Assembly (NCBI GenBank): GCA_964442785.1
Contig: CAYTZW010000002.1
Span: 2,457 to 66,456 of the forward strand
DNA: 64,000 nt
DNA from: an uncultured Erysipelotrichaceae bacterium
GTDB taxonomy: Bacteria > Bacillota_I > Bacilli_A > RFN20 > DUOF01
Reading direction: 5' to 3'
A model generated the notes under the pieces. It was given only the letters and a program-made list of their open reading frames with translations, was not told where the DNA came from and ran no database searches. Positions 31,059 through 62,104 of this stretch are shown one piece after another (position 1 is the stretch's first letter; the number at the start of each line of letters is the position of its first letter). A program made the translations under genes and the position numbers.

Positions 31059-31730
31059 ATGAAAGAAAAAATTATTTATTACTTTAAAAAATATCACATT
31101 TGGTACGCATTATTAATTGCTGCCCTATACTATGGAAAACTAATGATGTATAAATTTTCCAATCGTGTTAATACAAACTACCATTATATCAATATGAAAA
31201 TAGATGACTTAATCCCATTTTGTAAATACTTTATGTTTTTCTATTTTACTTACTATTGGTTTTCTCAATTACAATTATGGTTTGTCAGCTATGGAAACAA
31301 AAGAAAATTTTATCGAATGTTAATCGCTGCTGCTATAACTTGCGTTGCTTGTAATATTTGCTTTTTATGTTACCAAGTAAGAATGATTAGACCTGAAGTA
31401 ACTGGAAATGACCCTTTTGATTTATGGGTAAAATGGATTTATAATCGAGATGCCAAAGCAATGAATTGTTGTCCTTCGATCCACGCCGTTATGGGAACCT
31501 TAATGGTAATCGGAGGATTTAAAAGCAGTAACCTACCAAAATGGTTAAATATAGTTAGTGTCATCTTTGGTGTAGGTTGTATTGTATCAACAGTATTTGT
31601 TAAACAACATTACTTTATCGATATGGTTCTTGGAGTTATTTTTATGACAATATTCTACCTTATTGTAGTTTTTGTAGATAATAAAATACTCAAGAAAAAA
31701 GAAATGAATACTATAAAAAATGAAATCTAA
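31059..31730 (+). CDS. PAP2-like membrane phosphatase family protein
   Basis: Polytopic. CCPSIHAV resembles the PSGH motif and KQHYFIDMV resembles SRx5Hx3D. Confidence 0.45.
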   Translation: MKEKIIYYFKKYHIWYALLIAALYYGKLMMYKFSNRVNTNYHYINMKIDDLIPFCKYFMFFYFTYYWFSQLQLWFVSYGNKRKFYRMLIAAAITCVACNICFLCYQVRMIRPEVTGNDPFDLWVKWIYNRDAKAMNCCPSIHAVMGTLMVIGGFKSSNLPKWLNIVSVIFGVGCIVSTVFVKQHYFIDMVLGVIFMTIFYLIVVFVDNKILKKKEMNTIKNEI

Positions 31731-31746
31731 CAAATAAAAATATGCA

Positions 31747-31778
31747 AGGGGTGTTTTGCATATTTTTTAATCTATTAC
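31747..31778. terminator. Bidirectional terminator between the PAP2 gene and surface-protein paralog A
   Basis: ATATGCAAggggtgttTTGCATAT flanked by A/T runs. A near-identical copy lies at 35584-35615. Confidence 0.7.
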
Positions 31779-31782
31779 GAAA

Positions 31783-34305
31783 TTAGTTATGTGCTTTTTT
31801 GTGTTTTTTAATGACAATTACTTCAATAGCTAACAAAGAAGAAATTATAATCATTGAAACAAATATCATATAGTTAGATTTTGTAATATTTTCTTTAATT
31901 ACAATGTTAGAAGTAGATAAGGTAACAGGTTTAGTACTTTCTTCTTCAACAGGAGTTTCAGTTTCTAATTCGAGAGCAAATGTTATAGTAGAATTGCCAC
32001 TATTTGTAATATTAATAGACCTAGATTTAGTGAAAATAGTTGCTAAGTTTGTACCACTTAATTCTACATACAACTTGACTTCCCCTATTAATCCTTGTGG
32101 AGTAACTAAAGAAGATGTAAAGAAAGAAGAAGCAGCGATGCTAACCCCATATTTATCAAAAGCATCACTTAAATTACTATCATATAAATCAGGTTTACCG
32201 ATAAAATATCTGATAGTTCCATTTTTATATGCTTCTTGAATACTGTTAGAAGTTGCTTTTGTAAAAGTTATTTTTCCATTGCTAATGGAAGCGGTTGCAA
32301 AAATATTACTCATTGTAGGTGGCAGTATTGTATACGAATATCTTAAATAAGAAGATGCAAAAGACATACTGGTGTCAGGAACTTTTCCTGAATAGGTTGC
32401 AACATTATCAGCATTATCCTTTCCTACATTATAAATCCATAAATAATAAGTTCCTTGTTCTGAAACTATAGGAGCTGTAGTAGTAAAAGAAACATTATAA
32501 GCTGTATTTGATGTAAATGTTCTTACAAAACTCGAATAAGAAGGAGCGGAAGTTGAATTGTTCCAAGCATACATATATTGAGTAGGAGAAGAACAATCAT
32601 ATATACCAGAACTAGCTGATTGATTTTTTTCTTCTGTTAATTGAAAACTTATTGAGGAACCTGAACTAATAGTAGAAACATTACTTGTATACCAAACAGG
32701 TTTTGTTTTATCAATAGTTAAATATACAGATACACCATTTCCTGTTTTATCACTGACTAAGATTTCATAAATTCCTTCATCAGATAAAGTTCCATATGTA
32801 TAACTCGTTCCTGCTGAGTCTAAACTTGTATATTCTTCATAAGCACTAAGTGTTTCAGAAACAGTAACGCCTAAAAGAGCTTGATTATCAGTAATTATTA
32901 AAGAACAAGATGCATTTTTATAAGTAGGAGAACTTGAAGAAGTAGACAACACTGTTCCACCACAAGTAACACTAGGAGCGGTATTATCAATAACTAAATA
33001 TCCAGTCGTAGTATTACCAGTGGCGTCTTTGACGATAATTTTATAACTACCTTCAGTAGATAAAGTACCATAGGTGAATTTTGTCCCTGAAATTGCATCT
33101 GTTACATCTCCATAAATTTCATATTGTGATAATGCTTTATTATCGGTAAATACTAAAGAACAAGATTTGCTATAACTTGGAGAAGTAGATGAAGACGAAA
33201 GGGTAATTGAACCACATTTAATCACAGGAGCTGTTGTATCTAAAATAAGGGTAAAAAGAACTTCGGTATAGTTTCCTGATGTATCATAAACCGTAAAAAG
33301 ATTTCCACCCTCAAGTAAAGAACCATAGGTATAACTAGTACCTGATATTTCTTTATCCGAATAAGAGCCATTTTCTATTTCTGCAGTAAATTCTGATAAT
33401 CCAATATTATCTTTAAAAATTACTGTACAAGATGAATACAAGGTTACACTTGTGGTGGTAGAATAGGTATTACTACCACAAGTAATGGTAGGTGGAGTTG
33501 TATCTGATGATACAGTAAGGTGAACAATAAAAGAAATTTCTCCTTTACTATAATATATACCAGCAGTAATTTTATAGGTACCTGGGGATAAAGTATAAGC
33601 ATTTTCATAAATAGTTAAGCTATCAGTAACAGTTTTTCCAAAAGTAGTGGTTCCTGAAATTTCAAAATGGTCTCCACTTAACATAACATTCGTGGCAGAA
33701 GTAGTTAAGTATAATTCTTTTCCTTTTTGTTCAAGAACATAATAATATGTTCCGTCAACACCTATGAGACTATCAATTCCATTGTATACATTTGTTTCTA
33801 TGTAAACATTTAAAGTAATTTCACATATCCAATAATAATCATAACTGTCATTAATAAGTGTAACATCAGCTACTACAATATTAAAAGAACCTTCATATAA
33901 ATAAATTTCAAACTCTCCACAAAAATAATCAGAAGGGTCATCATTACCCATATATTCATAGTTAGAACCACTGCTAGCAGAAAATCCACCGTCATCTGTA
34001 TATGCGTGTAACATAACAAAATCGCCTTCCCTTATAATTATATCTTCGGTAAAAGAATAATATCCACTATCATCAGGATCATATAAATTTTCATTCCATT
34101 TAAAATCATAAGCATTATTATATAACTTTTGTCTAAAACTATTATCAGAATGAACATTTGCTGTTGCAGCTGCGTTTCCTGTTTCATTTGGAACATCTCC
34201 AGACCAGTCATTAGCTTTTGCCATATTATTTGACAAAAATACTAGACTTATAAAGGACAAGCATAACGATAATAAAATTATTCCTACTCTATTCTCCTTT
34301 TTCAT
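31783..34305 (-). CDS. Surface protein paralog A: signal peptide, HYR/DUF5011-like Ig-fold repeats, conserved C-terminal module with TM anchor and basic tail (KKHKKAHN)
   Basis: Start refined to MKKENRV, which has a GGGGGTG RBS. Repeats of about 95 aa begin DTTAPxIxCG and carry D-x-x-GN motifs. The C-terminal roughly 200 aa is near-identical to paralog B. Confidence 0.7.
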   Translation of the reverse strand: MKKENRVGIILLSLCLSFISLVFLSNNMAKANDWSGDVPNETGNAAATANVHSDNSFRQKLYNNAYDFKWNENLYDPDDSGYYSFTEDIIIREGDFVMLHAYTDDGGFSASSGSNYEYMGNDDPSDYFCGEFEIYLYEGSFNIVVADVTLINDSYDYYWICEITLNVYIETNVYNGIDSLIGVDGTYYYVLEQKGKELYLTTSATNVMLSGDHFEISGTTTFGKTVTDSLTIYENAYTLSPGTYKITAGIYYSKGEISFIVHLTVSSDTTPPTITCGSNTYSTTTSVTLYSSCTVIFKDNIGLSEFTAEIENGSYSDKEISGTSYTYGSLLEGGNLFTVYDTSGNYTEVLFTLILDTTAPVIKCGSITLSSSSTSPSYSKSCSLVFTDNKALSQYEIYGDVTDAISGTKFTYGTLSTEGSYKIIVKDATGNTTTGYLVIDNTAPSVTCGGTVLSTSSSSPTYKNASCSLIITDNQALLGVTVSETLSAYEEYTSLDSAGTSYTYGTLSDEGIYEILVSDKTGNGVSVYLTIDKTKPVWYTSNVSTISSGSSISFQLTEEKNQSASSGIYDCSSPTQYMYAWNNSTSAPSYSSFVRTFTSNTAYNVSFTTTAPIVSEQGTYYLWIYNVGKDNADNVATYSGKVPDTSMSFASSYLRYSYTILPPTMSNIFATASISNGKITFTKATSNSIQEAYKNGTIRYFIGKPDLYDSNLSDAFDKYGVSIAASSFFTSSLVTPQGLIGEVKLYVELSGTNLATIFTKSRSINITNSGNSTITFALELETETPVEEESTKPVTLSTSNIVIKENITKSNYMIFVSMIIISSLLAIEVIVIKKHKKAHN

Positions 34306-34361
34306 AAATAACACCCCCAAGATTGCATCTTTTGTAAGTATACATCTCTTTTACATTGTAC

Positions 34362-34390
34362 ATTATATATATATATATATATAAATGCAA
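34362..34390 (-). promoter_or_regulatory. Predicted sigma-A promoter of paralog A: TTGCAT, then a 17-nt spacer made of T plus (TA)n, then TATAAT
   Basis: Read directly from the sequence. The (TA)10 tract at 34364-34383 forms the spacer and the 5' part of the -10 hexamer. Confidence 0.55.
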
Positions 34391-34414
34391 CTTTTCAAAA
34401 TTTGATAAAAAATT

Positions 34415-34434
34415 TATATATCTTTAGATATATA
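34415..34434. promoter_or_regulatory. Perfect palindrome TATATATC-TTTA-GATATATA 24 nt upstream of the paralog A -35
   Basis: An identical palindrome sits at the same distance upstream of the paralog B promoter (39173-39192). Confidence 0.4.
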
Positions 34435-34527
34435 AAAATATATAGGTATTGTTATATTCGCAAATTTTAAAATTTTATTATCTATTTAACCATTAAATGT
34501 TTTATAATTGTGCTAGGAGGGTAATTA

Positions 34528-35559
34528 ATGGATAATAAACCAATGAAAAGCAGTATTGAAATTGATGACATTTTTGTCAACATTAAAGAATTAGTAATTA
34601 ATAGTAGGAATAAAGTATACCAAACGGTAAATACTGAAATGCTTAATTTGTATTAGAATATAGGAAAAGCAATTATTGGAATACAATTAGGCGATGAAAG
34701 AGCAAATTATGGTGATGCTGTTTTGGAAAAGTTGTCAGAAAAATTAACTAGTGAATTTGGAAAAGGATTTTCTAAGAGAAATCTTGAAAGAATGCGAAAA
34801 TTTTATATATGTTTCCCAATTACGACAACAGTGTCGTCGCAATTAAGCTGGTCTCATTATTTAGAACTTATCAAAATTGAAGAAGAACCAAAAAGAAATT
34901 TTTATTTTAATGAATGTATTAATTCTAAATGGAGTGTTCGAGAACTCCAAAGACAAAGAAACTCCCTGCTTTATGAAAGATTGATTTTATCCGCTGATAA
35001 AGAAAAAGTATTGGAATTATCGGAAAAAGGTCAAATATTGAAAACAAGTAAAGACTTAGTAAAAGACCCTTTTGTATTAGAATTTTTGGATATAAAAGAA
35101 AATACCAATTATTTAGAATTTGATTTAGAAAAAAATATTATAGAACATTTAAAAGAATTTTTGCTTGAACTTGGAAAAGGATTTAGTTATGTCGGAAATC
35201 AAATGAGATTAACATTAGAAGAAGACCATTTTTATCCTGATTTAGTATTTTACAATAGACTTTTAAAGTGTTTTGTAATCATTGATTTAAAAATAGGAAA
35301 AGTATCACATCAAGATATTGGACAAATGCAAATGTATGTAAATTATTATGATAGAGAAATTAAGCAAGCTGATGAAAACGCAACAGTTGGAATTTTACTT
35401 TCAACAGATAAAAATGAAACTGTCGTAAAATACACTTTACCTAAAGATAATAAAACTATTTTTTCTTCAGAATTCAAATTGCATATGCCAACTGAAGAAG
35501 AATTAATTAATGCCATAGAAGAAGAAAAGAAGAACTTTAAATTGAATGAAAAATAATAA
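34528..35559 (+). pseudogene. DUF1016/YhcG-like (PD-(D/E)XK nuclease family) gene with an in-frame amber stop at codon 43
   Basis: AGGAGG RBS, then ATG at 34528. The product reads ...EMLNLY*NIGKAIIG..., whereas the family has LYWEIGK, so TGG (Trp) has become TAG at 34654-34656. Downstream are DUF1016 motifs FGKGFSKRNLERMRKFY and QLSWSHYLEL. The track ORF 34723-35556 is the 3' portion. Confidence 0.6.
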
Positions 35560-35583
35560 AGATTTATCTGATAAGAAAAGCAA

Positions 35584-35615
35584 AAAATATGCAAGGGGTG
35601 TTTGCATATTTTTTA
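35584..35615. terminator. Terminator hairpin, copy of the 31747-31778 element
   Basis: ATATGCAAggggtgttTGCATAT followed by TTTTTT. Confidence 0.65.
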
Positions 35616-35700
35616 AATCTATACGAAATTAGTTGTGTGCTTTTTTATGTTTTCTTTATGACAATTAAACCACATAGACATTATTTCTATTAGATATGTA
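35616..35700 (-). pseudogene. Remnant of the 3' end of a third surface-protein paralog
   Basis: The minus strand encodes ...GLIVIKKT* followed by the same 3' flank as paralogs A and B (compare EVIVIKKHKKAHN* and EVIVIKKHKKAL*). No upstream ORF. Confidence 0.5.
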
Positions 35701-35831
35701 ACTATGACTTTAATACATTTTTTTTGCATATTATCAATCAAACAGTTTTCGCAGTTAATTACGAAAACTATTGTGTTTTTAAAACTTTTCGTTCATTTTT
35801 GCAAAATAAGTTTTTTCATTATTTTAAACTA

Positions 35832-38800
35832 TTATAATGCTTTTTTATGTTTCTTTATGACAATTACTTCAAGTGCTAACAAAGAAGAAATTATTATCAT
35901 TGAAACAAATAACATATAATTAGGTTTTCTAATATTTTCTTTAATTACGATGTTAGAAGTAGATAAGGTTATTTCTTTAACTTCATTACTAGCCACTTCA
36001 GTTTCTGAAGAATTAAAGATTATATTAGCACTACCAGTATTAGTTATATTAATACTACCTGATTTAAGAATAAGAGGATTTGTATCTTTATCATCTAATT
36101 TAAGCATAATGTATAACTCAACATTTCCTATTAATCCTTGAGGAGTAGTTATTGCTCCTTTTTCAAAGAATTTAGACGCTGGCATATTATTGGAAGGACT
36201 ATAAGTAACTCCATATTTTTTAAATCCGTCTTCTAATAAAACATCAGTAGAATAGTTACCATATTTACCTACAAAATAAACCGCTATTCCATTTTTATAT
36301 TCTTCTTGGATATTATTATTTCCTGATATAGTAAAGGATATTTGTCCATTGTTAAGCTTAGCATCGTTTATAATAGCCTTACTAGGAACGGTTCCGTCAT
36401 CATTTATCTCAATAGCAATAGAAGTCATATTACCTGCATAATCATAAGCACTAATACTATATGAACCTGCTGAAGATATAATATATCTATCTCCTGTTCC
36501 TGTGTAATTATCCGCTCCTGATACTACATAGTTTTTAAACATTTTATCTTCAAAAAATAACGTTAAGGGAACATTACTATGATAACTTATTTGCTTATCT
36601 TCTAGTACTTCTCCACTAGAAGAATTAAGTCGTATATTAGGAGATGTGGTATCTGCTAAAATAGTGTATTTATATTTTAATGTACCATAATATATTTCAC
36701 TATAATAATGAGGAGTTTTCCCTGAAAAAATTGCAACATTGCCTGAAGTATCTGCTCCTCGATTGAAAATCCAAAGATAATATGTCGTATTTTGAGTAAC
36801 TTTTGGAGCAGTTGTCATAAATGAAACTTTTGTAGTAGTGGTAGATATAAATGCTGGCTTTAAATCCCAAGTTGGTGATTCAGTATCGCTTATTGACCAA
36901 TCGTACCAATAAGTATAAGTACCATTATACAATTCAATATTATCTGTAATTTCAAAATAAATAGGGGTATTTGTTACTACTTCATTTATATCTTCAGTAT
37001 ACCAAACTGGTGGTTCTGTATCTGCATCAGTATCTGTATCTGTATTAGAGCCACTTGAAACATTAATAGTATATTTGTATTTAACATAATCAGTATAATA
37101 TGAAGTTGAATAATAAGGCTCTTTTCCTGAAAAAGTCGAAATATTGCCTACATAGTCTTTTCCTATGCTAGAAATCCATAAGTAATAGGTTTTACTATAA
37201 GTAACCATTGGTGCTGTAATTGAAAAAGAAACTTTTGTAGCAGATGTTTCTATAAAAGTGGTTAACCAAGTAGGTTTAGAATTTTTTGTAGTAGACCAGC
37301 CATAACAATAAAATTCACTTGCAGTTAGAAAACTATATAGACGTCTATTATCGGTTAATTGTACATATACACTATCTCCTGAATTGATTTCCGTTACATC
37401 TTCAGTATACCAAACTGGAGCTTCTGTATCATTACTATCTGCCAAAACAGTATAGTTATATATAACTTTGCTACTATAAGAAGTGTTACTAGATGCTGGG
37501 GATTTTCCCTTAAAAGTTGCAAGATTGCCAGCAGCATCTTTTCCTTGGTAATAAATATAAAAACTATATACAGCATCTTCTGTTACATATGGTGCTTTTA
37601 TGCTGAAACTAATAGTATTTGAAGTTTGCAAAGTGAAATTTGATTCAAGAGTGGAAGTATACCAACCATATTTATAATAAGTTGATGCAGATGAAAAACC
37701 CCATATTTTTTTATTATCAGTTAATTGAAAATTAAGAATAGTTCCTGAGTTGATTTCCGTTATATCTTCTGTATACCAAACTGGAGCTTCATTATCTTCT
37801 TTAATGTGATATTCATATATAAGGTATAAATAATCCCCGCAAGAATATGGTTCTTTTCCTGAAAATGTTGCAACATTACCTGCTAAATCCTTGCCTCTCT
37901 TATAAATCCATAAATAATAATTTGTATTAGATTTTACAAATGGTGCAGTTGTAGTAAAAGAAATCTTTGTTGGCGATACTATAGAATATTTATACGACCA
38001 AGAAGATGGAGTTTCAGTAGAACTAGTGGACCAACTATAGCCATAATAGGAATAGTCTCTATTAGCATACCTATAATATTCTATTTCAAATAAGTCTGTT
38101 AATTGAAAATTTAATTCTTGACCTGATTCTATTTCATAAATATCATCTGTATACCAAATTGGTGCCTCATCATCACCAATAATATAATATTCATACACAA
38201 CACACGAGTCATATGTATCTCCATATGAAATAGGTTGTTTTCCTGAAAATGTTGCAAGATTTCCTGAATCATCTTTACCTCTATGTTGAAGCCACAAATA
38301 ATATATTCCACTTTCAACTTTACTTGGTGTTGTTTTAAAATGATACATACTTGAAGAATGACCAATATATTGTTCGGACCAATATGATGGTTTTGTGGAA
38401 GAACTAGTAGACCAACCATATCGGTAATAATATGAATAGTAAGTAGAAGTAGAAGTTTCTTCTTCAATATAAATATTTGTTCCTGTTAATTTAAATTCAA
38501 GAGGTGTCCCACTATATATTTTATACAAATCATTAGTATTCCAAACAGGAGCGGTCGAAGAAGTAGTTCCACCAGAACTGCTTGACCCACCTGAAGAACC
38601 AGAACTGCCTGATTCACTCGAACTACCCGAACTACTTTCTATTATTTTTGTAACTGTTATCGTGATATTATAAGTAACATAAACTTCCTTATTGGAGCCA
38701 TAATAATCAATAACAGTAAAAGTATAAGTTCCTGTTGTATTTAAATTATAGTAATAATCTCCTCTTAAAGTTACACAAGAAGAATAATATCCACAATAAG

Positions 38801-39057
38801 AGCCATTATCGGCAACTATAGTAACTGAAACTGGTCCTTTTAAACTAAGACTTTTGGTAACAACATCACCTTTTTCATACATAACGCCATAATATTCATA
38901 TGAATTTCCTTCAGCATCATCTATCATAATGCAAGCATTTTCTTCCAAAACATCATCAACTCCTGCTTTTATGTTTTGACTTGTTACCAAAAACATACCT
39001 AAAAAAGCCATAAATAAGGCTAATAAAGCTACTTTTTCCTTTTTCATATATAACACC
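35832..39057 (-). CDS. Surface protein paralog B (about 1075 aa): signal peptide, Ser/Gly-rich linker, 5-6 repeats of about 115 aa of a HYR/DUF5011-like module, conserved C-terminal anchor module
   Basis: Start refined to MKKEKVALL, which has a GGGGGTG RBS. Repeats read APVWYTEDIxEIxSG...QLTD...YYLWI..GKD.AGN.ATFSGK. The C-terminal module is near-identical to paralog A. Confidence 0.7.
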
Positions 39058-39109
39058 CCCAAGATTATGTCTTTCACACCCAAAAGTACATATCTTTTTC
39101 ACAAAGTCC

Positions 39110-39148
<39 letters not shown>

Positions 39149-39172
39149 CTTTTTAAAATTACAAGAAAGGTT

Positions 39173-39192
39173 TATATATCTTTAGATATATA
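39173..39192. promoter_or_regulatory. Palindrome TATATATC-TTTA-GATATATA, second copy
   Basis: Identical sequence and spacing (24 nt from the -35) as at 34415-34434. Confidence 0.4.
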
Positions 39193-39232
39193 AAAAAGAT
39201 ATTAGCACCTATCCTTTAGTATCACTAATATC
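39186..39232 (-). terminator. Terminator after psd
   Basis: AAGATATTAG stem, 19-nt loop, CTAATATCTT stem, followed on the minus strand by TTTTTTAT. Confidence 0.5.
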
Positions 39233-58770: not shown

Positions 58771-60315
58771 TTATTTTAATATTTTTTTATATTCTTTTAT
58801 TTCTTCCTCTGTTGCTAAAACAAAATGGCCTTTTTTAACTTCCCTTAATTCTCTACCCATAACATTATCAGGAACATATTTTATAATCTTTTTGTTTCTT
58901 TCAAGTTCAGGATTAGGTTGAGGTACAGCGGATAATAAAGACTTAGTATAAGGGTGCAATGGATTAATAAACAACTCATCAGAAGGAGCAAGTTCCACGA
59001 TTTTACCTTTGTAAATAACGGCTATTCTATCCGCTACAAATCTAACTACGGATAAATCGTGAGCAATAAACAAATATGTTAATCCATAGTCTGCTTGAAA
59101 TTTCTTTAGCAAATTCAATACTTGAGCACGAATAGAAACATCTAAAGCACTTATTGGTTCATCTGCAATAATAAGTTCTGGTTTCATAACAATGGCTCGA
59201 GCAATTCCTATTCTTTGCCTTTGTCCTCCTGAAAATTCGTGAGGATACCTTGATAAATGTTCAGGCAATAAACCAACACTTTTAATTGCTTCGTGAACTT
59301 TCTTTTCACGGTCTTTTTCATTTTCATACAAATGGAAACTTCTAAGTCCTTCTGAAATAATATAATCTACTGTAGTTCTTTCATTTAAACTTGCCGCAGG
59401 GTCTTGGAAAATCATTTGAATACCTTTTTTAACTTCTTGTTTTACCTTTGGTGATATCGTCCCATTTATAACTTTATCGTGGAAAATTATCTTACCTTCT
59501 CTTACTTTATTAATTCCAACAATTGTTCTACCAATAGTGGTTTTACCAGAGCCACTTTCTCCCACAAGACCTAAGGTTTCACCTTTGTAAATGTCCAATG
59601 ATAAATTAGGAACAACATTAAAGAAATTCAAACCACGATAAAATCCAATATTAACATTTTCCATTCTTAATAAAACATCTTTAGGTAATTCTATCTTTTC
59701 CGAATTTAATTCATATTCCATTACATCTAAAGATTTCAATGAAAATATAGAACAAAAAAATGAAGTGAAAGAAATAGGTAATAATAACCAATTGGTAACT
59801 TTTAAAATTTTGCCTATTTTTATTAACTTTTTTTCTTTTAAACATAATAAAATAATGTAGAAAATAATTAATGATATTCTTATTAAGTTTAGAATATTAA
59901 AAACCAACTCTTTTTCTTCTTTAGAAGCACTTATTAAATAACATATTAATACTTTTGTTAATTTTAAAGTCCAAGTAGAAGTTAATAATACCTCTAGAAT
60001 AAAAATAAAGAAAAGTTTAATAGAACTAATTTTGTTAGATTCTTGATTATAAAGGTATAATCCATATGCTAATACAATTGCATTTAGAGAAATTATTGAA
60101 CCTCCTAATAATAGATTCAATAGTTTTTCATTTTTTTCAAAATCATAATTTTTATTTTGTATCATTATATTTGTAAATGTTAATACACTTATAAAACCTG
60201 CAATTAATAAAATTAAATTATGAATTGTTGGATTCTTAAAATAAATAAAAATATTAACAATTTCAAATACACTAGTAAGTGAGAAAAGATAAATGATAGA
60301 ATTATTCTTTTTCAT
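58771..60315 (-). CDS. oppF: Oligopeptide ABC transporter ATP-binding protein OppF-type, with an N-terminal membrane-domain extension of about 200 aa
   Basis: The C-terminal 310 aa form an OppF-like NBD ([28 protein letters not shown]). The N-terminal 5-6 TM segments are in the same frame, with no stop and no RBS at the internal Met. Confidence 0.65.
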
Positions 60316-62104
60316 TTTTCTTCACTCCTTTCTTAACTGCTGTTGCTTTCTTAGTAACTATTTTAATTTCTTTTACTTTATTGGTTATATTAGAAGCAAC
60401 AGATTTTGCTTGTTCTTCTAAATTCATTTTTAAATTAGCCACTTGCTTTGGCATTTCAACTTTTGGTGCTCTTTGATCAAGTAGCCAAGTTTTAGCCCAG
60501 TGAGTTGTTGATATAACAAATACTGGTGGTTCTTCTTTAAAATCAATAGCTAATGCATATGGATTTCTAGGGGCAAATGCATCTCCATTTATCTTTTGTT
60601 TTAATGATGGAGGTGTCCCTTTAATTGCAAATAAATCTTGACCTTTTATACCCAATTGGGGTAAAGAAGATAATAAAGCCCAGGTATAAGGGTGTGCGGG
60701 TTCATAAAATATTTCATTCACTAATCCATATTCGACTATTTGTCCACTATACATAACTGCAACTTTATCCGCAACGTTGGCAACTACTCCTAAATCGTGA
60801 GTAATATAAACTGTTGTGAAACCGTACTCTTTTTGCAAATCTTTAATAAGTTCTAGTATTTGTGCTTGAATTGTAACATCTAACGCTGTTGTAGGTTCAT
60901 CACATATTAATATTTTAGGATGACAAGCAAGTGCAATTGCTATTACCACTCTTTGTCTCATACCTCCAGAATATTGATAAGGTAAATCATTATATCTATT
61001 AGCAGCATCGGGAATTCCAACTCTAGTTAATAAATTAATAGCTTCTTTTTTAGCTAGTCTTCTACTCATCTTACTATGAATTCTTAAAACTTCACTAATT
61101 TGGTATCCAATTGATAGCAAAGGGTTCAATGATGTCATAGGATCTTGAAAAACCGTAGCAATCATTTTTCCTCTTATTTTTGACCATTCTTTATTAGTTT
61201 TAAACTTAGAAATATTTTGTCCTAAAAATATGACGCTTCCTGAATCAATCCACCCATTTGCATCTAACATTCCGGTAAATGTTTTAGTTAAAACTGATTT
61301 TCCAGATCCTGATTCCCCTACAATTGCTAAGCATTCATCTTTATATAATGATAAACTCACTTTTCTTAATGCAGTTAAATCATCTCCTCTAACTTTGAAT
61401 TTGACGACCAAATCTTTTACTTCTAAGATTGGCAATTCTTTTTTTAACTCATCCGGTTTTCCTTCTTCTACAATTCTTCCATCATAAAAGATTGCTATTC
61501 TGTTACAATACTTCTTAGCTAATTCAATATTAGAAGTTGAAATTAATAAAGTGTATTTCAATTCTTGTTGAAATTTTTTTAGAATATTTAATATTTCTTC
61601 ATTTTCAGAATCATCTAATTGTTTAGGCAAATCTATAACTATTAAATTTGGTTTCTGTTCCATAATGCTTAAAATATGCATTTTATATTTAGTAATTGGA
61701 TACGCTTTTTTAGATTTTAATTTCCAAACACTTTCAGGTAAATTAATATCTGCTAGAGTGTACTTTTGAAAAGCAAAATGTGATTTTAAAGATAAAACAT
61801 CATCATATTTTTCAATTGAATGTGAATTAACCAAAAAAACTTTATTTTCTTTTGGTTTATGTCTTGTATATGGATTTTTTAATTCTTCTCCATTTATTAA
61901 AGTTTTGCCACTCAAAACTAGAGAATTTTTTTCTAATTCAGAAGTAATGTATCTAACTAAAATAGATTTTCCTGCTCCTGTATTACCGACAATACCATAT
62001 GTTTCTCCTTTTTCTACTTTAAAAGAAACATTATTAACAGAAATAAAAGTTGATTTATTGATAGTGGTTTGAATTTTCAAATCTTTAACAACTAAATTTT
62101 CCAT
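60302..62104 (-). CDS. oppD: Oligopeptide ABC transporter ATP-binding protein OppD-type with an extra degenerate N-terminal NBD
   Basis: NBD1 has GNTGAGKS, no signature motif and Walker B IVIDLP. NBD2 is canonical ([27 protein letters not shown]). There is a C-terminal Lys-rich extension. Confidence 0.65.

What the first reader, a model, noticed from the sequence alone, without database searches (positions are those of the whole stretch)
35560..35831. Orphan 3' end of a third paralog plus a duplicated terminator: a footprint of recombination within the locus
At 35616-35700 the minus strand encodes the last residues (GLIVIKKT*) of the conserved anchor tail. The downstream flank, including the hairpin terminator ATATGCAAGGGGTGTTTGCATAT, is almost identical to the 3' flank of paralog A at 31745-31800. 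There is no gene body. This remnant sits 130 nt from the true 3' end of paralog B. It is consistent with a deletion or gene conversion that removed most of a third family member.
Basis: seen in the sequence. Interest (0 to 1): 0.55.

Follow-up and report, generated by a model that had tools for sequence, protein, structure and literature searches.

The report
Displaced 3' end of surface-protein gene
A real 87-base leftover, made of a surface-protein gene's last codons plus its terminator, sits just downstream of paralog B; it is most likely B's own original end pushed aside by a 200-base insertion, so it is an ordinary rearrangement scar and not the wreck of a third gene.

Summary
Window 35582-35667 matches the last codons, 3' UTR and hairpin terminator of paralog A (31736-31820) at 92% over 87 columns (E 3e-19). 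The same module follows a family pseudogene in another organism (L003, 85%). The match includes the G+C-containing hairpin loop, so it is not AT-rich noise.

The "third paralog" reading is not supported. Profile searches find two family promoters, two gene bodies and two canonical 3' UTR/terminator modules in the window. B is the only gene without a canonical 3' module. The remnant is the only module without a gene. It lies 170 nt downstream of B in the same orientation.

A 29/30-nt direct repeat (35638-35667 and 35838-35866) brackets a 170-nt spacer with no detectable relative. B ends ...KKHKKAL*, while A and three other family members end ...KAHN*, and the remnant keeps AHN*. Removing the spacer plus one repeat in silico rebuilds a colinear, A-like, canonical 3' end.

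The best reading (about 0.58) is that this is the native 3' end of the B locus, displaced by a 200-nt insertion or duplication. How the insertion happened is unresolved. A deleted third paralog remains possible (about 0.22).

No related genome could be read across this junction. Interest is low.

The parts
35582..35614 (.). Bidirectional intrinsic-terminator hairpin: A-run, a 13-14 bp stem and a T-run. It lies between the convergent YhcG pseudogene (+) and the paralog B transcription unit (-).
   Evidence: The fold gives -12.2 kcal/mol (z -5.7) on the minus strand and -12.8 kcal/mol (z -4.2) on the plus strand. It is homologous to A's terminator at 31736-31769 and to L003 10637-10676. The simple terminator scan did not call it, because the stem has fewer than 3 G-C pairs.
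35615..35637 (-). Canonical 3' UTR plus the last two codons and stop (CAC AAC TAA = H N stop, 35637-35629) of the family's 3' module.
   Evidence: Alignment to A and to L003. The 3' UTR/terminator profile hits 35582-35637 at E 4e-16.
35638..35667 (-). Direct repeat copy DR_R: an orphan copy of the last 8-10 codons of the membrane-anchor tail (IVIKKHKKA), with its frame broken by one extra A.
   Evidence: Exact location. It matches B's tail 29/29 with a 1-nt indel. It matches tail-profile positions 111-139 only.
35668..35837 (-). Spacer X, 170 nt of unrelated DNA. Its first 6 nt in gene orientation (35837-35832, TTA TAA) supply B's present last codon and stop.
   Evidence: No significant similarity to A, B, their promoters or flanks, or anything else in the window. 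No match in the other fetched loci. No Rfam match. No match in phage or plasmid records or viral contigs.
35741..35772 (-). A 13-bp hairpin inside X, followed by only a weak U-tract. It may be a partial terminator for B.
   Evidence: The fold gives -14 kcal/mol, z -4.3. A function is inferred only.
35838..35866 (-). Direct repeat copy DR_B: the in-frame end of paralog B (codons for IVIKKHKKA).
35832..39047 (-). Paralog B, 1071 aa from its ATG. It has a signal peptide, six copies of a domain of about 125 aa, a C-terminal domain and a membrane-anchor tail ending ...KKHKKAL*.
   Evidence: Translation, internal repeats, comparison with A.
31736..31820 (-). The intact reference copy of the module at the 3' end of paralog A: tail, AHN-stop, 3' UTR and terminator.
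34528..35556 (+). YhcG/DUF1016 PDDEXK-nuclease gene with one in-frame TAG (codon 43, 34654-34656). It converges on the remnant's terminator.
   Evidence: Pfam PF06250 at 4.8e-55 and PF17761 at 2.2e-29. Translation.

Best explanation
The remnant is the native 3' end of the gene slot now occupied by paralog B, and not the last piece of a third gene.

Family genes have conserved ends. The upstream end carries a shared promoter, 5' UTR and signal peptide. In A and in the L003 copy, the downstream end carries a shared membrane-anchor tail ending ...KKH[K/Q]KAHN-stop, followed about 20 nt later by an A/T-flanked hairpin terminator.

B once ended in this way at 35582-35667. A rearrangement then placed 200 nt inside its last codons. 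This consisted of 170 nt of unrelated DNA (X) plus a second copy of the last 29-30 coding bases.

The upstream copy of the repeat stays in frame with B. It runs into X, which supplies a new last codon and stop (TTA TAA), giving the aberrant end ...KKHKKAL*. The downstream copy, with the old AHN-stop, 3' UTR and terminator, was left orphaned. It has since gained one A in a homopolymer.

The orphaned terminator probably still works. It would end the convergent YhcG transcript, and any B transcript that reads through the weak hairpin in X.

Shown: the homology, the direct repeat, B's aberrant end, the counts of two for each module type, and the in-silico reconstruction. Inferred: the order of events and terminator use. 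Unresolved: what made the insertion. Candidates are a decayed integrated element with an att-like 30-nt core, templated repair of a break, or an imprecise 3' joint during replacement of the resident gene.
For: 1. The homology is specific: 92% over 87 columns, E 3e-19.
2. The same tail and terminator follow a family pseudogene at an unrelated locus in another organism (L003, 85% over 89 nt). Tail plus terminator is therefore a standard module of the family.
3. Profile searches find two promoters, two 3' UTR/terminator modules, two bodies, and two full tails plus the 30-nt fragment.
4. The direct repeat is 29/29 identical with one indel. The remnant carries B's bases at the three positions where A differs.
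5. A, P0008, P0010 and P0012 end ...KAHN. B alone among these ends ...KAL, and it departs from the canonical sequence exactly at the 3' edge of the repeat.
6. Removing X plus one repeat gives an uninterrupted alignment to A of about 91%, from the terminator into the anchor-coding region, and the product ...LEVIVIKKHKKAHN*.
7. X shows no trace of a family promoter, body or 3' UTR.
8. From reasoning, not a tool: a random deletion inside a gene of about 3 kb would seldom leave only 30 nt, and seldom the very 30 nt that overlap B's point of departure. A duplication at an insertion site predicts exactly that.
Against: - No process is known to me that makes a 30-bp target duplication around a 170-bp insert in one step. 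X has no terminal inverted repeats, no recombinase gene and no second copy in the 64 kb.
- No empty-site allele was seen. In the same strain and in the closest relatives, every contig stops at the family's conserved promoter or tail.
- At two of the three sites where the remnant agrees with B against A, L003 also has the B state. This agreement may therefore be ancestral and not a sign of recent duplication.
- The first 27 nt of X resemble the canonical 3' UTR weakly and colinearly: p 0.04 against A's flank, but 0.12 and 0.24 against the other two copies, and the profile search gives no hit. If that resemblance were real, B would have its own decayed flank and the remnant would be a third module.
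Confidence: 0.58

Rival explanations
1. This is the first reader's view: a third paralog C once lay between B and the YhcG gene. A deletion removed its promoter and body, leaving the last 8-10 codons and the terminator. X is then B's own non-canonical 3' flank plus B-C intergenic DNA.
For: - The family forms multi-copy loci. A and B are adjacent here. P0008 and P0012 share one 13.5-kb contig in another genome.
- Family pseudogenes exist (L003).
- Deletion is a simple, common process.
- The first 27 nt after B's repeat resemble the canonical 3' UTR weakly (p 0.04 against A's flank). This would give B its own decayed flank.
Against: - No third promoter and no body fragment are present. The deletion would have had to remove all of them and stop 30 nt before the stop codon.
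- B's aberrant C-terminus and missing terminator then need a second, independent event at nearly the same position.
- The 3' UTR profile does not recognise B's flank.
- The remnant's coding bases show no substitution relative to B. A and B differ by about 8-10% over the same region.
Confidence: 0.22
2. Cassette replacement with an imprecise 3' joint. An incoming family gene (B, with its own tail and flank X) replaced the resident gene of this slot. Homologous recombination acted in the conserved upstream region, and an illegitimate joint formed inside the resident tail. The resident's last 30 nt and terminator stayed behind. The remnant would then belong to a former occupant of the slot. It would belong neither to B itself nor to a third tandem gene.
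For: - Both ends of the gene are conserved at the DNA level between paralogs and between organisms, while the bodies are very diverged. These ends could serve as homology anchors.
- The B ortholog next to psd in the relative L008 has one internal repeat domain instead of six, so the body of this slot does change.
Against: - It only moves the question of B's non-canonical end and flank X to an unknown donor.
- No donor sequence or second copy of X was found.
- The sequence alone cannot separate it from the best explanation.
Confidence: 0.12
3. The similarity is chance AT-rich matching, or the arrangement is an assembly artefact caused by repeated gene ends.
For: Short-read contigs of the same strain break at 31765, inside A's terminator, and at 39124, inside B's (TA)n tract. 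This shows that the locus is hard to assemble.
Against: - E 3e-19, with 0 of 100 shuffles giving any match to the hairpin pattern.
- The match includes the G+C-containing loop.
- A collapse or chimera through a shared 30-mer would join the flanks through one copy of the repeat. It would not produce repeat-X-repeat with unique DNA on all four sides. The two copies also differ by one base.
Confidence: 0.04

Closest known systems
Orphaned 3' regions downstream of rhs, cdiA and T6SS effector genes (displacement of an old 3' end by incoming DNA; PMC5361080 and the work cited there)
   Same: A short stretch of the conserved part of the gene is present twice in direct orientation. The upstream copy is in frame with the gene and leads into new DNA. 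The downstream copy is promoterless and carries the old 3' end.
   Different: In those systems the displaced piece is a whole toxin-domain and immunity module, and the incoming DNA encodes a new one. Here the displaced piece is 10 codons plus a terminator. The incoming 170 nt encode nothing recognisable. No toxin or immunity function is involved.
attL/attR core duplication left by site-specific integration into the 3' end of a gene (my own knowledge: phages and integrative elements often carry a substitute 3' end for the target gene)
   Same: Direct repeats of a few tens of bases bracket foreign DNA. The gene is kept intact, with a slightly altered C-terminus supplied by the insert. The original end is left downstream.
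   Different: The insert is only 170 nt and has no integrase gene or other element gene. It would have to be the stump of a larger element, and nothing tested here shows that.
Gene fragments (pseudogene relics) in tandem arrays of variable surface-protein genes (my own knowledge, for example 5'-truncated silent pilS copies in Neisseria)
   Same: A promoterless partial copy of a surface-protein gene lies next to expressed paralogs that share conserved ends.
   Different: With only 30 nt of invariant tail and no variable sequence, it cannot serve as a donor of diversity. No evidence was found that a whole gene once stood here.
Bidirectional Rho-independent terminators between convergent genes (my own knowledge)
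   Same: A hairpin flanked by an A-run and a T-run. It folds equally well on both strands and sits between two convergent transcription units.
   Different: The stem is A/T-rich, with two G-C pairs. Termination was not measured.

Membership tests
Relic of a third family paralog | Homology to family coding sequence beyond the shared last codons | tested here: not met
   tblastn finds only A and B. The tail profile matches only positions 111-139 of 139. Local alignment of X against the full A and B regions scores no better than shuffles.
Relic of a third family paralog | Own promoter or 5' remnant in the right order and orientation | tested here: not met
   A profile built from four family promoters hits only 34303-34444 and 39045-39201. 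Nothing falls in 35668-35837 at E up to 100.
Relic of a third family paralog | The neighbouring gene B keeps its own canonical 3' module, so that the remnant is a surplus module | tested here: inconclusive
   The 3' UTR profile finds two modules and none directly after B. An anchored alignment of B's flank gives p 0.04, 0.12 and 0.24 against the three canonical copies.
Relic of a third family paralog | An intact third copy at this position in a related genome | not testable with these tools
   Contigs of the same strain and of relatives end at the conserved promoter or tail. Genome and metagenome scans found nothing.
Insertion with duplication of the target (target-site or att-type) | Direct repeats immediately flanking the inserted DNA | tested here: met
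   35638-35667 and 35838-35866 match 29/29 with one indel. Both edges are sharp.
Insertion with duplication of the target (target-site or att-type) | Removing the insert plus one repeat restores an intact site | tested here: met
   The reconstruction is colinear with A's 3' end at about 91% and encodes ...KKHKKAHN*. A is a paralogous site, not an orthologous one.
Insertion with duplication of the target (target-site or att-type) | The insert carries marks of a mobile element (terminal inverted repeats, a recombinase, other copies) | tested here: not met
   Read directly, the ends of X show no inverted repeats. X has no other copy in the window or the fetched loci. It has no match in phage or plasmid records or viral contigs.
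Insertion with duplication of the target (target-site or att-type) | An orthologous empty site in a relative | not testable with these tools
   The same contig breaks as above.
Rho-independent terminator | A stable hairpin followed by a U-tract on the transcribed strand | tested here: met
   -12.2 kcal/mol, z -5.7, followed by UUUUUU on the minus strand. The plus strand gives comparable values. The consensus scan missed it because it requires at least 3 G-C pairs.
Rho-independent terminator | Transcripts end there | not testable with these tools
   No expression data are available.

The most novel reading that the evidence does not exclude
The conserved promoter/signal-peptide end and the conserved anchor-tail/terminator end of this rare surface-protein family may act as recombination handles. 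Hypervariable gene bodies would then be swapped between loci or strains through these handles, and the orphan tail would be the scar of one such swap with an imprecise 3' joint. Together with the (TA)n tracts in the promoters, this would describe a cassette-exchange and phase-variation system for surface proteins in an uncultured low-G+C Clostridia lineage.
Probability: 0.1. Interest if true: 0.5.

Novelty: new member of a known kind. Interest (0 to 1): 0.2.

Why it matters
On its own this matters little. It is a small rearrangement scar that changes two C-terminal residues of one surface protein and lengthens its 3' UTR.

Its use is as a marker. It shows that the family's tail-plus-terminator module is a discrete unit conserved at the DNA level, and that the 3' boundary of these genes is a site of rearrangement. 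This is relevant to how the variable surface-protein family diversifies.

For annotation, the 40-codon ORF at 35619-35741 should not be called a gene. B's terminator probably lies about 220-250 nt downstream of its stop codon.

Tried and rejected
**Searches for relatives that found nothing**
- A search for relatives of the family's C-terminal domain in genome contigs returned no confirmed locus.
- A wobble-tolerant DNA pattern for the anchor found nothing in genome contigs or metagenome contigs.
- A terminator pattern found nothing in metagenome contigs.
- The search for homologous proteins with B's C-terminal domain found nothing.

**Contig look-ups that did not reach the junction**
- Exact look-ups of A, B, the YhcG product, P0001 and P0008 were not on record.
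- Look-ups through the flanking genes psd and PAP2, and through P0009, P0010, P0004 and P0015, gave contigs. None of these contigs crosses B's 3' end.

**Is X a decayed promoter of a third gene?**
By eye, the 3' end of X resembles the -10 and (TA)n region. The promoter profile gives no hit, and local alignments score no better than shuffles. Rejected.

**Does X begin with a decayed canonical terminator?**
The anchored test is borderline and the profile gives no hit. Left as inconclusive.

**Other ideas rejected**
- X is not a diverged tandem copy of the remnant's flank.
- X matches no known RNA family.
- X matches nothing in phage or plasmid records or viral contigs.
- PAP2 and YhcG are not paralogs, so the repeated unit is not a gene pair.
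- Neither Pfam nor PDB gives an identity for A or B.

Full report
**What is there**

The region lies in a low-G+C (about 28%) bacterial contig. Two paralogous minus-strand genes encode large secreted proteins with a C-terminal membrane anchor. They are A (31783-34305, 840 aa) and B (35832-39047, 1071 aa).

The order on the plus strand is:
- a PAP2-family gene (+, 31059-31730);
- a hairpin terminator;
- A (-) and A's promoter region;
- a YhcG/DUF1016 nuclease gene (+, 34528-35556);
- a second copy of the hairpin terminator;
- the remnant;
- 170 nt of other DNA;
- B (-) and B's promoter region;
- phosphatidylserine decarboxylase, psd (-).

- Window 35583-35667 aligns with A's 3' end and flank (31736-31820) at 92% over 87 columns, E 3e-19. 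The Smith-Waterman score is 131, against a shuffle maximum of 35.
- The hairpin pattern occurs only at these two places in the window.
Compared with B, the remnant has one extra A in a homopolymer. Without it the reading is IVIKKHKKAHN-stop, which is A's C-terminus.
- There is no gene body.

**The tail-plus-terminator is a standard family module**

An exhaustive HMMER search found only 12 proteins of this family among 1.84 billion cluster representatives.

One of them, P0010, lies in a contig from a different sample and a different genomic context (L003). There the gene is fragmented. It is preceded by the same promoter region and followed by the same ...KAHN-stop, 3' UTR and hairpin. That module is 85% identical to the remnant over 89 nt.

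The hairpin folds with z-scores from -5.7 to -8 in all three copies, and on both strands of the remnant. A, P0008, P0010 and P0012 all end ...KAHN. B ends ...KAL.

**Counting the modules**

Profiles were built from four promoters, three 3' UTR/terminator copies and three tails, and searched over both strands of the window.
- Promoters: two, A's and B's.
- 3' UTR/terminator modules: two, A's and the remnant's.
- Tails: two full tails plus the 30-nt fragment.
- Bodies: two.

B is the only gene without a canonical 3' module. The remnant is the only module without a gene. It lies directly downstream of B in the same orientation.

**The junctions**

B's last 29 coding bases (35838-35866) recur at 35638-35667. 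They match 29/29 with the one extra A, and both edges are sharp.
- Upstream of the repeat, B continues into its anchor-coding sequence, while the remnant continues into unrelated DNA.
- Downstream of the repeat, the remnant continues with the canonical CAC AAC TAA, 3' UTR and hairpin, while B continues with TTA TAA and unrelated DNA.

Removing the 170-nt spacer and one repeat in silico gives a sequence colinear with A's 3' end. Identity is about 91% from the terminator into the anchor-coding region, and the product ends ...LEVIVIKKHKKAHN*.

**The spacer**

X (35668-35837) has no detectable relative.
- It matches nothing in A or B, including their upstream regions.
- It matches neither the promoters nor the flanks tested directly.
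- It matches nothing elsewhere in the window or in the other fetched loci.
- It matches no Rfam family.
- It matches nothing in phage or plasmid records or viral contigs.

X contains a 13-bp hairpin (35741-35772; -14 kcal/mol) with a poor U-tract. B transcripts may therefore read on to the orphaned canonical terminator. This is an inference.

**Interpretation**

One event accounts for all of the following:
- the repeat;
- B's aberrant C-terminus;
- B's missing terminator;
- the small size of the remnant;
- the counts of two for each module type.

That event is a 200-nt insertion or duplication inside B's last codons. I give this reading 0.58.

Its weak point is mechanism. A 30-bp duplication is longer than any transposon target duplication I know of. 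X bears no mark of a mobile element, and no empty site could be examined.

First, a deletion that removed a promoter and about 3 kb of gene but stopped 30 nt before the stop codon. Second, a separate change at B's own end. In its favour is a weak, colinear resemblance between the first 27 nt of X and the canonical 3' UTR. This gives p 0.04 against A's flank and 0.12 and 0.24 against the other two copies. The profile search does not confirm it.

A third reading (0.12) is replacement of the resident gene by an incoming family gene with an illegitimate 3' joint. It follows the model proposed for orphaned 3' regions in T6SS and Rhs loci (PMC5361080). The sequence alone cannot separate it from the best reading.

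Chance similarity or an assembly artefact is unlikely (0.04).

**Related genomes**

The same strain is present in sample SRR10277277. Its contigs stop at 31765, inside A's terminator, and at 39124, inside B's (TA)n tract.

The closest relatives have psd at 82% amino-acid identity. They carry the family promoter right after psd. In L008 a B ortholog follows, but the contig stops 35 codons before the end of the gene.

Neither an empty site nor a third copy could therefore be observed.

**Verdict**

This is a real and specific remnant, and an ordinary kind of rearrangement scar. The idea of recombination within the locus is reasonable. The "third paralog" reading is not supported.

Noticed in passing
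window 34303-34444 and 39045-39201; L003 8947-9073; L008 2732-2851: The family promoter region is conserved at the DNA level between paralogs and between organisms. It contains a palindrome (TTTATATATC-N5-GATATATAAA in A and B), then TTGCAT or TTGCGT, then a (TA)n tract running into TATAAT. The tract is (TA)10 in A, which gives a 17-nt spacer. It is (TA)15 in B, which gives 27 nt, and it is much shorter in the two relatives. This looks like a dinucleotide-repeat phase-variable promoter. A short-read contig of the same strain ends inside B's tract at 39124.
   Followed up: partly
window 34528-35556 (+): A YhcG/DUF1016 PDDEXK-nuclease gene is intact except for one in-frame TAG at codon 43 (34654-34656, ...LNLY*NIGK...), at a position where I recall (from memory, not tested) a conserved Trp in this family. 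It is either a recent pseudogene or a base error. It sits between A's promoter and the remnant's terminator, so it may be a later insertion between the two family genes.
   Followed up: partly
window 36640-38550 (-), within paralog B: B contains six tandem copies of a domain of about 125 aa (motifs PVWYT ... YYLWI..GKD..GN.ATFSGK) at about 35-45% identity. A has one copy, plus three other repeats of about 85 aa. The B ortholog in the relative L008 has only one copy. Neither Pfam nor PDB matches either protein.
   Followed up: partly
L003 9072-10624: In another organism a family gene with the canonical promoter and terminator is broken by a stop after MKKEKCI and by frameshifts. It lies in an unrelated neighbourhood, between an M24 peptidase gene and sporulation sigma-factor genes.
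   Followed up: partly
L004 19-1977 (same sample as the window's strain): A third family member (P0004, 652 aa) lies elsewhere, on a contig from the same sample as the window's strain. Its tail is different (...IIQNRKTMIKKYK*) and it has no canonical terminator. A gene with an HA domain follows it.
   Followed up: no
whole family: The family is very rare. Only 12 cluster representatives were found among 1.84 billion, and each of the 10 clusters looked up holds one or two sequences, from a few NCBI and Logan assemblies. Short-read contigs repeatedly end at the family's conserved promoter or tail. The family is therefore probably under-assembled and under-counted.
   Followed up: partly
window 58771-62104 (-): The OppD and OppF ATPases are unusually long (600 and 514 aa). 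Their best matches are the NCBIfam equivalogs defined on the minimal Mycoplasma mycoides genome (MMSYN1_0167 and MMSYN1_0168). The psd relatives, in contrast, are named as Clostridia MAGs.
   Followed up: no
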